From a virus, in IMG/VR virus record IMGVR_UViG_3300028844_005363, positions 1-64,000 of that record: a DNA stretch of 64,000 nucleotides. One strand, given 5' to 3'. Shown here piece after piece: positions 1-6,150 of the stretch. Both the position numbers and the translations under genes were made by a program. How positions within the stretch are numbered: position 1 is the stretch's first letter; every line of letters starts with the position of its first letter. The notes beneath the pieces are model-generated. The model was given only the letters and a program-made list of their open reading frames with translations. It was not told the origin of the DNA and searched no databases.

Positions 1-2
1 TG

Positions 3-476
3 CAAACTTACAATGATTTGCAAAAAGAATACTTTAAATTAGTTGGTGACATAAACACCGCTAATCTCCAAAACACTATCACTTTAAATGGTGAGAAAGT
101 TAGTTTGGTTGTTGCAATTGAAATGCGTAACAATCTCGAATGGCAGAAAGATTTTGTACGAACCATCCATACTCAGGCTGTGAACATGGAGCGCCGTATC
201 TTAGAATCTAACACTGCTTTAGAAGAAGAGATTCAGCACGTTACTTTACGTAACAAAACAGATTCTATGGCTACAGCTGATGTACTAGAATTAGAAGAGC
301 AAACTCGTAACCGTCTGGAAAAAGCTAATAAAGCTATTATCCATGACCCGTTAAGTATTCGTCTAATGCATGAACGTGAAGCTGCGAAGTATACTGAGTT
401 ATGCGATGAATTGGATACTAAACTTAATATTGCTAATGCTACTATCACTATAGGTGTTGCAGCAGAAGCGAGTTAA
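3..476 (+). CDS. 5'-truncated alpha-helical protein, DIP1984/DUF6847-like
   Basis: Frame is open from the window start (QTYNDLQKEYF...). The pattern I-x-x-A-N...SLxxAIxxR...DP...ELDxxLNIANATITI resembles the DIP1984-like family as I remember it. Confidence 0.6.
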   Translation, partial: QTYNDLQKEYFKLVGDINTANLQNTITLNGEKVSLVVAIEMRNNLEWQKDFVRTIHTQAVNMERRILESNTALEEEIQHVTLRNKTDSMATADVLELEEQTRNRLEKANKAIIHDPLSIRLMHEREAAKYTELCDELDTKLNIANATITIGVAAEAS

Positions 477-603
477 TTTTAGTTGGTTTAATGTTGTGAC
501 GAACATTAAGAAAAGCAGTACCACACTTTACTACCTCAAACCATGTGGCTAAATAAAGGTTAGGAGTACTAATCATTCATTCTGATAAATGAAATGCTAG
601 GGA

Positions 604-672
604 ACTTTCGGTTACATGTTCGATTCATGTATGGGGTGCATACCCCATTAGCTCAATTGGTAGAGCAAAAGT
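604..672 (+). ncRNA. Circularly permuted tRNA-like module (T arm, closed acceptor stem, D arm; YrlA-like topology)
   Basis: ACTTT, CGGTT, T arm ACATG-TTCGATT-CATGT, acceptor ATGGGGT-GCAT-ACCCCAT, TA, D arm GCTC-AATTGGTA-GAGC, A, AAAGT. No anticodon loop and no free CCA end. Confidence 0.88.
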
Positions 673-703: not shown

Positions 704-788
704 TCGTTAGCTGTCAGCATTTAGATTTGAGATGTTAGATTTGAAATATTAGATATTTTTTCTTCAGATATTTTTGAATAGATATGAG
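704..788 (+). repeat. 7-nt periodic NNNNNAG array inside the ncRNA
   Basis: TCGTTAG CTGTCAG CATTTAG ATTTGAG ATGTTAG ATTTGAA ATATTAG ... TGAATAG ATATGAG. Confidence 0.75.
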
Positions 789-930
789 TTGTCACTAAAT
801 CCTAGACTCAAGTTTACAATGGTTTACTACTTACCAGTTAATGTACTCTAGGCTGTCACACCATTAAACAGGTCTAAGCAATAGACTAAAAACAACCGGC
901 TGGTTCACGATACGAACCACTCAAATTTTG

Positions 931-967
931 TAAGCCATTAGATGTAATTATCTAATGGCTTTTTTTA
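931..967 (+). terminator. Rho-independent terminator
   Basis: AAGCCATTAGAT-gtaatt-ATCTAATGGCTT followed by a T run. Confidence 0.85.
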
Positions 968-991
968 TTTAGAACTAAGAGGTAATCACCT

Positions 992-2852: not shown

Positions 2853-3185
2853 ATGAACATTTTAAATATTATTTTATTCGTATGCAGTGTTGCACTGGTT
2901 TACGTTCTGTTCTTTTTTAAAAGAAAAAAGCATCCTGTTACCGAAGTACTGGTTACACGATCAGTAAAACCAAGCAAAAGAAAAGTGTATGATACGACTC
3001 CTTTTACAGATTCCCAAGTAGAGTACATAAAAAGAAGATTTGCTTTAAACAAAGTTTGTCTCCCAAAGCATAGAGTTACGCAGCTAGAATTAACAATCTA
3101 CTTAAATGCCACGTTTGGTTTAAATAAATCTGTAACTGCGTACCGCCGTGTTTGGAAAAATGAAACTAATAAACAGGAGAACTAA
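2853..3185 (+). CDS. Membrane-anchored hypothetical protein with HTH-like C-terminus
   Basis: N-terminal hydrophobic helix, basic linker, TQLELTIYLNATFGLNKSVTAYRRVW. Confidence 0.55.
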   Translation: MNILNIILFVCSVALVYVLFFFKRKKHPVTEVLVTRSVKPSKRKVYDTTPFTDSQVEYIKRRFALNKVCLPKHRVTQLELTIYLNATFGLNKSVTAYRRVWKNETNKQEN

Positions 3186-5335
3186 TGTTAGATTTAGAAA
3201 CGGTTGAGCATAATTCCATATCAGAGGGATTAGTAGACATCATGTGTGAAAAGACACAAAGTGAATGTCCGCAATTCTTCCGTGTTTTGGTAGCTTATTA
3301 CTTTGGTAAGGTGGCTTCTTCAATGCGAGCCACGGTTAAAACTATTGATAGAGGTGTACTACCTATTAATATTTATGCCATTAACCTAGCACCGTCAGGT
3401 ACAGGTAAAGGCTTATCTACAAATATTATGGAAGAGTCAGTTCTAAAAGGTTTCCGTGATAAATTCATGGAAGAAACCTTTCCTGTATTAGCTGAGAAAA
3501 ATCTAATCCATTTAGCTAACAAGCGTGCCTTGAAAGATGACTTGGATACTGATACGGCTCTTGCGCGTGTTCAGGAAGAGTTTTACACAGCAGGTGAACT
3601 CGCATTCTCATTTGATAGTGCAACGACCGCAGCAGTTAAACAGATGCGCCACAAACTACTAATGGCTAATGCTGGTTCTGTGAACATGGAGATTGATGAA
3701 ATTGGTTCAAATCTTCTAGGTAACGTAGATGTACTTACCGCATTCCTTGAATTATACGATGTAGGTAAAATCAAACAGAAGCTAACCAAGAATACTAAAG
3801 AAAATATTCGTGGTGCTGAAATTGATGGTCGTACACCTACTAACATGATGTTGTTTGGTACTGCATCTAAGTTGCTTAATGGTGGTAAGACAGAAGAAGA
3901 ATTTTATTCTATGTTAGACACCGGGTACGCTAGACGTTGTATTTTTGGTTATGTTAAAGATAATCCAAAGAACCTAGAATTAACGCCTATGCAGTTATTG
4001 AAGCAGATGCGTAACAACACCAGTACAGCATTCTTAGAAGAGCTTAACGAACAGTTCACTAACCTAGCTGACATCATAAACTTTAATCGTGAGATAGAAG
4101 TAAGTGAAGCTGTAACACTAATCTACTTAGAATATAAAATAGATTGTGAGCGCCGTGCACATGAGCTGTTAGAGCATGATGAAATTCGTAAGGCTGAGTT
4201 ATCTCACCGTTACTTTAAAGCCATAAAAGTAGCAGCTACTTATGCTTTCATTGAAGATACTTATGAGATTACCGAAGCTCAAATGTACAGTGCAATTAAG
4301 TTGGTTGAAGAAGCTGGTGAGTCTTTCAAAGGGTTATTAACCCGTGATAGAAACTATGTGAAATTAGCTAAGTATGTTGCTGCTGTTCGTGGCGAAGTAT
4401 CACATGTTGACCTAGTGGAAGATTTACCATTCTACAAAGGCAGCGAGTCAGCTAAACGTGAATTACTAAACCTAGCTATAGCTTATGGTTACAAGAATAA
4501 TATTATCATCAAGAAAATGTTCAATGATGGTATTGAGTTCTTGCGTGGTGAAACACTTCAAGAAGCTGATAATGAAAATCTATGGTTATCACATAGTGAT
4601 GATCAAGCCTATCGTTATGAGTTTGACGATGAAGTGCCTTTTAGTAGTATATCAGAGTTGACCCAATTGGATGATCACCATTGGATTACTCACAAAGTAC
4701 TCGAAGGTCATCGTTGTGAAGAAAAGTGTGTTCCTGGTTTCAATATGATTGTTATTGATATAGATGATGGTTTCCCTATCGAAGCGGCAGTTAAACTAAT
4801 GGAAAATTATACCTTCCATTTATATACCACTAAACGCCACACCGCTAAAGTAAACCGTTATCGTATGGTATTCCCACTTAACTACATATTGAAGTTAGAT
4901 GCAGCAGACTTCAAAGAGTTCATGAATAATTTTTATGAGTGGCTACCATTTGATGTAGATACTGAGACAAACCAACGTTCTCGTAAGTGGTTAACTCATA
5001 ATGGTTCATTCATTGATAACGAAGGTGAGTCAATAGACGCGCTACCATTCATACCTAAAACCAGTAAGAATGAGGAACGTAAGAAGCAGTTACTCGATAC
5101 CGGTTCATTAACTAACTTGGAACGTTGGTTTGTGGATAATACTGGTAATGGTAATCGCAGCAATCAAATGATCAAGTACGCATTGATGCTGGTCGAGAAT
5201 GGTCTTGATTTAGTTGATGTACGACAGTACGTATTAGACTTTAACGAGAAGCTACCTGATAAGATGACCGAGAAGGAAATCAGTAGAACTATTTTGGTTA
5301 GCGCAGCAAAAGCTATTGCCGCTAGAGATGCTTAA
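3185..5335 (+). CDS. DNA primase, N4 gp43-like
   Basis: APSGTGKG P-loop, DEIGSNLL, C-terminal AEP-like DIDDG and YTTKRH, PriCT-like GNRSNQMIKYALML; N4 synteny. Confidence 0.85.
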   Translation: MLDLETVEHNSISEGLVDIMCEKTQSECPQFFRVLVAYYFGKVASSMRATVKTIDRGVLPINIYAINLAPSGTGKGLSTNIMEESVLKGFRDKFMEETFPVLAEKNLIHLANKRALKDDLDTDTALARVQEEFYTAGELAFSFDSATTAAVKQMRHKLLMANAGSVNMEIDEIGSNLLGNVDVLTAFLELYDVGKIKQKLTKNTKENIRGAEIDGRTPTNMMLFGTASKLLNGGKTEEEFYSMLDTGYARRCIFGYVKDNPKNLELTPMQLLKQMRNNTSTAFLEELNEQFTNLADIINFNREIEVSEAVTLIYLEYKIDCERRAHELLEHDEIRKAELSHRYFKAIKVAATYAFIEDTYEITEAQMYSAIKLVEEAGESFKGLLTRDRNYVKLAKYVAAVRGEVSHVDLVEDLPFYKGSESAKRELLNLAIAYGYKNNIIIKKMFNDGIEFLRGETLQEADNENLWLSHSDDQAYRYEFDDEVPFSSISELTQLDDHHWITHKVLEGHRCEEKCVPGFNMIVIDIDDGFPIEAAVKLMENYTFHLYTTKRHTAKVNRYRMVFPLNYILKLDAADFKEFMNNFYEWLPFDVDTETNQRSRKWLTHNGSFIDNEGESIDALPFIPKTSKNEERKKQLLDTGSLTNLERWFVDNTGNGNRSNQMIKYALMLVENGLDLVDVRQYVLDFNEKLPDKMTEKEISRTILVSAAKAIAARDA

Positions 5336-5340
5336 TTTAT

Positions 5341-5361
5341 GGGGCATACGCCCCTTTATTT
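5341..5361 (+). terminator. Short terminator
   Basis: GGGGC-atac-GCCCC followed by TTTATTT. Confidence 0.55.
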
Positions 5362-5382
5362 GATAATCCAATAGGAGCATTT

Positions 5383-6150
5383 ATGCTAGATAAATCACAA
5401 CCTGACGAGGTTGAAGAAGAAGAGTACGAGAATGACAACTTAGTACTTATTTGTGGTAAAGCATCTACAGGTAAATCGCGAAGCTTGAAACACCTTAAGA
5501 ACCCAGAAGGTGTTATTTATTTAAACTGTGAACATAAGAAATTACCTTATCGTTCAGATTTTTTACAAGCCAAAATTACCGACCCATACCAAGTGTATGA
5601 TGCGTTTGAAGAAGCTGAAAATGACCCAGAAATTCATACAATAGTTATTGATACTCTTACATTCCTTATGGATATGTTCGAGACAAAGCATATTGTTGGT
5701 TCTGCTAATACTCAGCAAGGTTGGGGCGATTACTTCCAATTTGCTAAGAAATTATTTTCACACTACATTGCTACGTCTAGTAAGAATGTTATTATTCTTG
5801 CTCATACTTCTGATACTGAAGTGACTGAAGGTAATGCTGTTAGTTTTGAAACTTTAGTGAAAGTTAAAGGTTCATTGATGAACGTAGGTATTGAATCATT
5901 TTTCAGTACTATTGTTCTTACTAAGCGTATGCCTGTTAAGAAACTTAAGAAGTACGAAAATTCTTTACTTTCTTACAGTGAGAAAGAAGAACGTCTTGGC
6001 TTCAAGTACGTGTTCCAAACCATGCAGACTAAAGAAACTGTCAATGAGCGTATGCGCGCATCAGATGATATGTGGGATGATTCTGAAACCTTTATTGATA
6101 ACGATGCTCAATTAGTAATGAGTCGTCTTCATGAATACTACGCCGATTAA
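5383..6150 (+). CDS. Sak4-like AAA_24 ssDNA-annealing ATPase, N4 gp44-like
   Basis: GKASTGKS, IVIDTLTFLMD, ILAH, VKGSLM..GIES. Confidence 0.85.
   Translation: MLDKSQPDEVEEEEYENDNLVLICGKASTGKSRSLKHLKNPEGVIYLNCEHKKLPYRSDFLQAKITDPYQVYDAFEEAENDPEIHTIVIDTLTFLMDMFETKHIVGSANTQQGWGDYFQFAKKLFSHYIATSSKNVIILAHTSDTEVTEGNAVSFETLVKVKGSLMNVGIESFFSTIVLTKRMPVKKLKKYENSLLSYSEKEERLGFKYVFQTMQTKETVNERMRASDDMWDDSETFIDNDAQLVMSRLHEYYAD

What the first reader, a model, noticed from the sequence alone, without database searches (positions are those of the whole stretch)
704..788. Heptamer-periodic NNNNNAG array, a possible track for an oligomeric RNA-binding protein
Seen: seven consecutive in-phase 7-mers end in AG, one in AA (TCGTTAG CTGTCAG CATTTAG ATTTGAG ATGTTAG ATTTGAA ATATTAG). 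After a 1-nt slip come TTCTTCAG, TGAATAG and ATATGAG. Spacing and the AG are kept while the other positions vary, which fits selection better than simple slippage. Established analogy: TRAP rings bind regularly spaced NAG triplets. Inference: each unit binds one subunit of the upstream protein.
Basis: partly seen in the sequence, partly recalled or inferred. Interest (0 to 1): 0.78.

Follow-up and report, generated by a model that had tools for sequence, protein, structure and literature searches.

The report
Heptad-repeat tract of a phage RNA
The evenly spaced 7-base units are real and form the conserved repeat tract of an uncatalogued folded RNA that follows one small helical-protein gene in very different phages (T5 relatives included), so they probably act as a ruler-like docking track for a multi-copy protein, though no binding has been tested.

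Summary
Positions 704-791 are the most 7/14-periodic stretch of the whole 74.7-kb marine N4-like phage genome. The array is not a local accident. The upstream gene (216 aa, phrog_1491, weakly DUF6847/DIP1984-like) has homologues in at least 729 phage records. In all 15 loci examined the gene is followed by a 339-707 nt unannotated gap. In 12 of the 15, that gap holds the strongest 7-nt periodic tract of the locus.

Without the window, AG-AG spacings of 7, 14 and 21 nt occur four to five times more often than in shuffles. The tract always ends just before a conserved AAAUCC motif and a covarying helix. In a four-member consensus fold it stays unpaired inside a closed RNA.

Binding by the upstream protein remains inference. 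The phage encodes no TRAP, HutP or Ro60, and the protein is near neutral with no known RNA-binding fold. Rfam has no match, RAGATH-27 included. Earlier notes of this scan describe the same gene-plus-heptad-RNA pair on other phage DNA; I read them after my own analysis.

The parts
3..476 (+). 3' two-thirds of the partner protein gene. It is cut by the contig start; the full length is 216 aa (P0121).
   Evidence: phrog_1491 E 2.8e-13 over profile positions 60-209 of 211. Sub-threshold DUF6847 (23.8 bits, cut-off 27) and DIP1984_fam. Full-length identical protein P0121.
486..501 (+). 5' strand of the helix that closes the RNA; it pairs with 854-869.
   Evidence: 14 Watson-Crick pairs, 1 G-U and 1 mismatch (494/861). 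Present in the unconstrained MFE. An analogous 5'-3' closing helix appears in the consensus fold of four other members.
604..672 (+). Circularly permuted tRNA-like module. In order: closing stem 604-608/668-672, T arm 614-630, 7-bp acceptor stem 631-637/642-648 sealed by a GCAT loop, U8-A9, D arm 651-666.
   Evidence: Rfam YrlA RF02553, 35.6 bits (below the gathering score of 69), E 2.1e-5, model positions 23-85 only. ARAGORN finds no tRNA. The same module lies upstream of the heptad tract in Erwinia phage Rebecca.
704..791 (+). Heptad-repeat tract, the finding itself. It has 12-13 slots of 7 nt, about 10 of them N-U-N-A-G-N-N, with one 1-nt register slip near 762.
   Evidence: Homologous tracts in other phages.
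797..856 (+). Conserved 3' element: AAAUCC (797-802), helix 801-806 with 847-852, then CUGU (853-856).
   Evidence: Alignment A3 of 14 loci. 86.9% of cells paired, 4 of 6 pairs with compensatory changes, covariation score 0.474 against 0.227 in shuffles (0 of 500 reach it), slid controls at most 0.205.
854..869 (+). 3' strand of the closing helix.
932..968 (+). Intrinsic terminator (13-bp stem, 4-nt loop, U run), the likely 3' end of the RNA's transcript.
   Evidence: Similar hairpin-plus-U-run ends occur in the Milchi, IW18, QCM8, XD2 and BMBsp2 gaps.

Best explanation
Positions 704-791 are the heptad-repeat tract of a roughly 385-490 nt structured non-coding RNA. The RNA is transcribed from the + strand just after the DIP1984/DUF6847-like (phrog_1491) protein gene and ends at or before the terminator at 932-968. 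The gene-plus-RNA cassette is a mobile module found in very different phage families, usually among tRNA genes. In the RNA a closing helix (486-501/854-869) encloses three parts: a 5' domain with a permuted tRNA mimic, the heptad tract, and a conserved 3' hairpin. The tract is displayed largely unpaired. Its 7-nt repeat (family consensus N-U-N-A-R-N-N, here N-U-N-A-G-A-U) most likely sets the register for side-by-side binding of several copies of one protein, about one protomer per 7 nt. The co-inherited upstream protein is the most plausible partner. Shown: the periodicity, its conservation, its fixed position, the RNA-level covariation of the flanking helix, and the gene-RNA linkage. Inferred: that the tract is single-stranded in vivo, that a protein binds it, which protein, and the stoichiometry.
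For: The periodicity is real and the strongest in the genome. Homologues of the upstream protein occur in 10 records, 729 phage records and 190 representative clusters. All 15 loci inspected have a 339-707 nt unannotated gap right after the gene. In 12 of 15 the gap's best lag-7 window beats every flanking window, about 3,000-5,900 windows each. With the window left out, AG-AG distances of 7, 14 and 21 nt are 20, 19 and 14 against 4.5, 4.1 and 3.9 expected (z 7.2, 7.4, 5.2). The pooled heptad without the window has U at position 2 in 79% and A at position 4 in 85%. The tract always abuts the AAAUCC motif and a covarying helix. The RNAalifold consensus of four members leaves the whole tract unpaired within a closed RNA. 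Between the related phages SPLA5a and KpS11 the U and A positions are kept while other heptad positions vary (sequences).
Against: There is no experimental or transcript evidence. Single-sequence folding does not mark the tract as less paired than the rest: P(unpaired) is 0.28-0.52 against 0.32-0.46. The protein family is near neutral (median pI 6.5), with only a basic N-terminal segment, and has no recognisable RNA-binding fold. Three of 15 loci (LAh_9, Milchi, 7-11) show weak or mixed 7/8 periodicity. The window's copy is partly recent 14/15-nt duplications, so some of its regularity is inheritance rather than selection. The rotation used to pool the heptads was chosen to fit the window's matrix, which inflates the similarity somewhat.
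Confidence: 0.45

Rival explanations
1. The tract is a docking or sponge platform for a host factor rather than for the phage protein. Candidates are a single-strand RNA binder, an RNase, or a tRNA-anticodon-loop-directed enzyme or toxin. Each heptad carries the U-N-A-R signature that also marks anticodon loops (U33, anticodon, purine 37).
For: The module occurs in phages of Gram-negative and Gram-positive hosts and sits in tRNA clusters. The RNA carries a tRNA mimic. The phage protein is not basic. Heptads read like U33 plus NAG or NAA anticodon words.
Against: The strict gene-RNA linkage in 15 of 15 loci is most simply explained by a direct partnership. No host factor with a 7-nt footprint is indicated by any result here. 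The anticodon-loop reading is pattern matching on linear sequence without stems.
Confidence: 0.2
2. The tract has an RNA-only role. It pairs or packs with other parts of the same RNA (pseudoknots, A-minor layers) or with further copies of the RNA, as in the RNA-only assemblies of ROOL and GOLLD. On this reading the 7-nt period reflects RNA geometry rather than protein protomers.
For: The RNA is large, closed, and located near tRNA genes like ROOL and GOLLD (for that literature; for closure). The tract is A-rich in most members, 30-46% A. In the window the MFE can fold the tract on itself through A-U and G-U pairs.
Against: No covarying partner for the tract appeared in the four-member consensus fold. 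Self-pairing in the window depends on G-U pairs created by the direct repeats, and it is not available to the A-rich tracts of other members. Rfam models of ROOL and GOLLD gave no hit.
Confidence: 0.22
3. The array is a functionless slippage or duplication product, or a DNA-level element such as iterons, an origin unwinding element or a promoter cluster.
For: TRF sees 14- and 15-nt units with 78-90% matches, which implies recent duplication. Perfect heptamer microsatellites of similar sequence exist in unrelated viral contigs. The region lies upstream of replication genes.
Against: Periodic tracts recur at the same position in homologous RNAs of phages with no DNA similarity. The flanking helix covaries at the RNA level. 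The motif words are not reused elsewhere in the genome, so they are not a promoter consensus. A 7- or 14-bp spacing does not match helical phasing for iterons. The module occurs in phages with unrelated replication systems.
Confidence: 0.06

Closest known systems
HutP binding sites in the Bacillus subtilis hut mRNA (own knowledge; HutP family PF09021)
   Same: NAG triplets separated by four unconserved bases, giving a 7-nt period, read by a symmetric oligomer. The window's UAG/GAG/CAG-N4 units fit this pattern formally.
   Different: No HutP homologue in the phage. HutP uses two sets of three triplets to control a terminator, whereas here there are 10-12 units inside a closed non-coding RNA. 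Family-wide the conserved letters are U-N-A, and in most members the G sits one to two bases later.
TRAP and the trp leader
   Same: A ring protein reads many regularly spaced (G/U)AG triplets, one per subunit.
   Different: TRAP spacing is 5-6 nt, not 7. There is no TRAP homologue and no attenuator context.
Bacterial Y RNA YrlA with Ro60/Rsr (Rfam RF02553; PMC4201824)
   Same: The adjacent module at 604-672 has the YrlA-type permuted tRNA mimic: T arm, sealed acceptor stem, D arm. A protein-plus-ncRNA pair near tRNA or RNA-repair contexts.
   Different: The score is below gathering (35.6 against 69) and only the tRNA-like part matches. There is no Ro-binding stem and no TROVE/Ro60 gene in the genome. 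YrlA has no heptad tract.
Phage T4 gp32 translational operator (own knowledge)
   Same: An unstructured A/U-rich RNA with repeated UUAAA-like words. It is coated cooperatively by a protein with a site size of about 7 nt, nucleated next to a folded element.
   Different: That operator is an mRNA leader controlling its own gene. Here the tract lies 3' of the gene, inside a closed non-coding RNA, and the candidate partner is not an OB-fold SSB.
RAGATH-27 motif (Rfam RF03100), named as closest known in earlier notes of this scan
   Same: An orphan candidate RNA that other agents reported as overlapping relatives of this RNA family.
   Different: It was tested here. There is no match at E up to 10 in this genome, and none at the gap in five other member records; the weak hits lie elsewhere.

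Membership tests
TRAP-binding RNA (trp leader type) | A TRAP (TrpBP, PF02081) protein is encoded or available. | tested here: not met
   No PF02081 match in the 74.7-kb genome; the control rings in B. subtilis.
TRAP-binding RNA (trp leader type) | 9-11 (G/U)AG triplets separated by 2-3 nt. | tested here: not met
   Spacing here is 7 nt, i.e. 4-nt spacers.
HutP-binding RNA | A HutP (PF09021) protein is encoded or available. | tested here: not met
   No PF09021 match; the control rings in B. subtilis. The host is unknown (marine metagenome).
HutP-binding RNA | NAG triplets with 4-nt spacers. | tested here: met
   UAG, CAG, UAG, GAG, UAG, (GAA), UAG at 7-nt steps.
YrlA / bacterial Y RNA (RF02553) | Reaches Rfam's gathering score and has the Ro-binding stem. 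| tested here: not met
   35.6 bits against 69. Only model positions 23-85 of 114 match.
YrlA / bacterial Y RNA (RF02553) | A Ro60/Rsr (TROVE) partner gene. | tested here: not met
   No PF05731 match in the genome.
Heptad-repeat RNA following phrog_1491/DUF6847-like genes (uncatalogued family defined here and in earlier scan notes) | Lies directly 3' of a phrog_1491 homologue, on the same strand, in an ORF-free gap of several hundred nt. | tested here: met
   Window gap 477-991. The same arrangement holds in 14 of 14 other loci.
Heptad-repeat RNA following phrog_1491/DUF6847-like genes (uncatalogued family defined here and in earlier scan notes) | A 7-nt periodic tract with a U-N-A core. | tested here: met
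Heptad-repeat RNA following phrog_1491/DUF6847-like genes (uncatalogued family defined here and in earlier scan notes) | The tract is followed by AAAUCC, a covarying 5-6 bp helix about 50 nt apart, then CUG(U). | tested here: met
   Window positions 797-856. Alignment A3 and pair counts.
RAGATH-27 (RF03100) | Match to the covariance model. | tested here: not met
   No hit at E up to 10 in the own genome. No hit at the gap in 5 other member records.

The most novel reading that the evidence does not exclude
The heptad tract is the assembly track of a previously undescribed, widespread phage ribonucleoprotein. Several copies of the DIP1984-like helical protein would line up at 7-nt steps on an unpaired tract held between a tRNA mimic and a conserved hairpin. 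The particle would act on tRNA or RNA-damage pathways during infection, for example as a decoy or sensor for anticodon-loop-directed host nucleases, because each heptad carries the U-N-A-R signature of an anticodon loop.
Probability: 0.3. Interest if true: 0.9.

Novelty: new variant of a known kind. Interest (0 to 1): 0.78.

Why it matters
Regularly spaced RNA words read by protein oligomers are known from only a handful of systems, such as TRAP and HutP. Here the same design principle appears in an uncatalogued RNA. That RNA travels with one protein family through hundreds of phages: N4-like, T5-like, rV5-like, Bacillus Herelleviridae, jumbo Erwinia phages and Vibrio and Aeromonas Demerecviridae. 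It nearly always sits among tRNA genes. T5 relatives and other culturable phages carry it, so the hypothesis is directly testable at the bench. If it is confirmed, it defines a new phage RNP and explains a long 'empty' gap in many annotated genomes. It also shows that the conserved letters are U and A two bases apart at a 7-nt period, which gives a concrete mutational target.

Tried and rejected
- DNA similarity of the 515-nt gap to 50,697 phage records: no match. Sensitive blastn against 80 loci syntenic for the downstream ATPase: only chance hits.
- Relatives of the downstream ATPase (at most 56% identity) mostly have a tight gene junction there. The cassette is therefore not part of the N4-like core.
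The 74%, 68% and 53% relatives (P0002, P0003, P0122) could not be fetched.
- Sequencing runs: no RNA holder listed. The only independent DNA holder (X3) has a contig ending at 585, so there is no population variation data for the array.
- Peptide-pattern searches of viral contigs with the upstream protein or its alignment failed.
- A pattern scan for three TNAGAT heptads in viral contigs returned mostly perfect heptamer microsatellites and two degenerate arrays in unrelated 5'-UTR contexts (L299, L302). I judged these uninformative.
- The promoter idea: array words are not reused elsewhere in the genome, and the sigma-70 scan found nothing on the + strand.
- Phage K lnc001 (PMC9241854) was checked as a possible relative. 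The neighbouring protein is unrelated (hhalign probability 0.07) and there is no heptad tract.
- Literature searches for DUF6847/DIP1984, N4 origins, T5 ncRNA and YrlA in phages found no description of this RNA.
- Single-sequence unpaired probabilities did not distinguish the tract from the rest.
- A Foldseek PDB search of the protein model gave only 3KDQ, of unknown function.

Full report
CONTEXT. The window is the first 64 kb of a 74,757-bp IMG/VR virus record rated complete. A 3,689-aa ORF on the minus strand and the overall gene order mark it as an N4-like podophage. It comes from a marine metagenome. The finding lies in a 515-nt ORF-free gap (477-991). The gap separates a 5'-truncated ORF (3-476) from a ClpX-like AAA ATPase gene (992-1822).

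THE OBSERVATION. AG alone would not be convincing. Several other dinucleotide and period combinations reach 6 of 7 in-phase hits somewhere in the window. The units share more than AG, however. In the register GTTAGCT, GTCAGCA, TTTAGAT, TTGAGAT, GTTAGAT, TTGAAAT, ATTAGAT, the U at position 2 and the A at position 4 are invariant. Tandem Repeats Finder reports 14- and 15-nt units. Autocorrelation peaks only at lags 7, 14 and 21 (z 3.5, 4.75, 2.4). This is the most 7/14-periodic stretch of the entire genome: 0.544, against 0.422 for the runner-up, with mean 0.254 and sd 0.038.

SURROUNDINGS.
- About 35 nt upstream lies a complete, circularly permuted tRNA mimic (604-672). It has a T arm, a 7-bp acceptor stem sealed by a tetraloop, U8-A9, a D arm and a 5-bp closing stem. 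Rfam's YrlA model matches it below threshold (35.6 bits, E 2e-5), and only over its tRNA-like part. ARAGORN calls no tRNA.
- A 16-position helix (486-501 with 854-869; 14 Watson-Crick pairs, one G-U, one mismatch) closes the region.
- A strong intrinsic terminator follows at 932-961.
- The genome encodes no Ro60/TROVE, HutP or TRAP protein.
- The array's words are not reused elsewhere in the genome, which argues against a promoter consensus.

THE DECISIVE COMPARISON. The upstream ORF belongs to phrog_1491 and weakly resembles DUF6847 and DIP1984. Its full length is 216 aa (P0121). HMMER finds 190 representative clusters. tblastn with one family member finds 729 phage records. I examined 14 further loci from different phage lineages:
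- Aeromonas LAh_9
- Pseudomonas Milchi, XD2 and phiPsa267
- T5-like TrudiRoth
- Vibrio IW18
- Aeromonas TS3
- Bacillus QCM8 and BMBsp2
- rV5-like SPLA5a, KpS11 and pEa_SNUABM_55
- Salmonella 7-11
- jumbo Erwinia phage Rebecca

In every one of them the homologue is followed by an unannotated gap of 339-707 nt, usually inside or beside a tRNA cluster. None shares detectable DNA similarity with the window.

In 12 of the 15 gaps, the best 63-nt window at lag 7 exceeds every window of the flanking 3-6 kb. In most of them lag 7 is the best of lags 4-15 and beats all shuffles. I then defined the tract by position only, as the 100 nt before the AAAUCC anchor, and left the window out. AG-AG distances of 7, 14 and 21 nt then occur 20, 19 and 14 times against 4.5, 4.1 and 3.9 expected (z 7.2, 7.4, 5.2). 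Stacked in register, the other members give N-U-N-A-R-N-N, with U at position 2 in 79% and A at position 4 in 85%. This pooling has a caveat: the rotation was chosen to fit the window's matrix. The window's UAG/GAG/CAG form is shared by IW18 and TS3. Most other members read UCAAAG or UUAAAG.

IT IS AN RNA.
- In 14 loci the tract ends just before AAAUCC, a 5-6 bp helix whose strands lie about 50 nt apart, and CUG(U). In the window these are 797-802, 801-806/847-852 and 853-856.
- On the MAFFT alignment A3, 86.9% of cells pair and 4 of 6 pairs show compensatory changes. Examples are CCUAGA/UCUAGG, CCUGG/CCAGG, CCUCG/CGAGG and CUUGG/CCAAG.
- The covariation score is 0.474 against 0.227 in shuffles (0 of 500 reach it). 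Sliding the partner strand drops it to 0.205 or less.
- An RNAalifold consensus of four enterobacterial-phage members predicts structured 5' and 3' domains and a long-range closing helix. It leaves the whole heptad tract unpaired.
- Rebecca has the same permuted tRNA mimic upstream of its tract, and XD2 has a T arm there.
- Rfam 15 has no family for this RNA. RAGATH-27, named in earlier scan notes, matches neither this genome nor the gap of five other member records.

MECHANISM. Shown:
- a conserved 7-nt period;
- conserved U and A positions;
- a fixed place between folded domains of a closed RNA;
- strict linkage to one protein gene.

The simplest reading is a register-setting platform on which several copies of one protein bind side by side. 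The co-inherited protein is the prime candidate. This works like the TRAP and HutP tracks (HutP shares the NAG-N4 spacing) or like cooperative coating of the T4 gene 32 operator. It is not a member of any of these systems.

Against over-confidence:
- The protein model (pLDDT 94) is a long helical bundle with small sheets that resembles only 3KDQ, of unknown function.
- The family is near neutral apart from a basic N-terminal segment.
- Single-sequence folding does not single out the tract as unpaired.
- Three loci have weak periodicity.
- No transcript or binding data exist.

Rivals are a host-factor platform or decoy, an RNA-only structural or multimerisation role, and, now unlikely, neutral slippage or a DNA-level element.

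RELATION TO EARLIER SCAN NOTES. After my own analysis I queried the scan's notes. Several earlier reports on other phage genomes describe the same pairing: a DIP1984/DUF6847-like gene followed by a closed RNA with 7-nt periodic repeats. They agree with what I found independently. Their RAGATH-27 link does not hold for this window.

VERDICT. The array is the local member of a widespread, uncatalogued phage RNA feature.

Noticed in passing
L203:10230-10375 (contig 74,230-74,375, beyond the window): A second tRNA-like element about 500 nt before the partner gene. It has two T-arm hairpins (loops TTCGATT and TTCGAGT). A GGGCGT...ACGCCC acceptor-like pairing is followed by CCCA. There is a weak hit to the permuted cyano_tmRNA model (18.3 bits), and ARAGORN calls nothing.
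   Followed up: partly
L203:7888-8011 (contig 71,888-72,011): The Rfam tRNA model matches above gathering (34.7 bits), with about 50 nt inserted in the variable region. The match overlaps an ORF (71,927-72,472), and ARAGORN does not call it.
   Followed up: no
window 1-476 and the contig ends: The record starts inside the partner gene: 157 of 216 codons are present. The contig's last roughly 840 nt are ORF-poor and look structured. An identical protein is on record from a 75,149-nt contig, so the record is a slightly short, arbitrarily opened assembly.
   Followed up: partly
window 939-956: The terminator stem is built from TTAGAT and its complement ATCTAA, the same hexamer as the heptad units. 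This may be coincidence or a shared recognition word.
   Followed up: no
L111, L122/L125/L144, L143, L153 (two copies), L165, L166, L168, L171, L184 (viral contigs): Many unrelated viral contigs carry permuted tRNA-like modules: a T arm, then a sealed 6-7 bp acceptor hairpin, then a D arm. The acceptor stems covary. Several keep an anticodon-like hairpin upstream, which is a different opening point from YrlA.
   Followed up: partly
L328:2104-2810 (Pseudomonas phage phiPsa267): The gap after the homologue contains a perfect inverted repeat of about 100 nt. A heptad tract reads on the opposite strand, in addition to a + strand AAACC-helix-CUGU element. This looks like an inverted partial duplication of the RNA gene.
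   Followed up: no
L208:3555-3690, L304, L259, L296, L309, L312, L318 (viral contigs): Perfect heptamer microsatellites (TGAGATA, TTAGATA, TAAGATT, TCAGATT; 7-15 copies) occur in unrelated viral contigs. Their context was not examined.
   Followed up: no
L321:2423-2719 (Aeromonas phage LAh_9): A gene annotated as a ProQ-like RNA chaperone lies directly upstream of the phrog_1491 homologue. This phage's 605-nt gap lacks the heptad tract and the AAAUCC motif. It gives a sub-threshold STnc100 hit (36.9 bits) and has internal duplicated motifs.
   Followed up: no
L323, L327, L329, L333 (T5-like and rV5-like phages): The 3' hairpin of the RNA carries an almost invariant loop, UCAYAAGAUAUG. The closing helix's 3' strand carries a conserved AUCGG word. 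Both are shared between otherwise unrelated enterobacterial phage families.
   Followed up: partly
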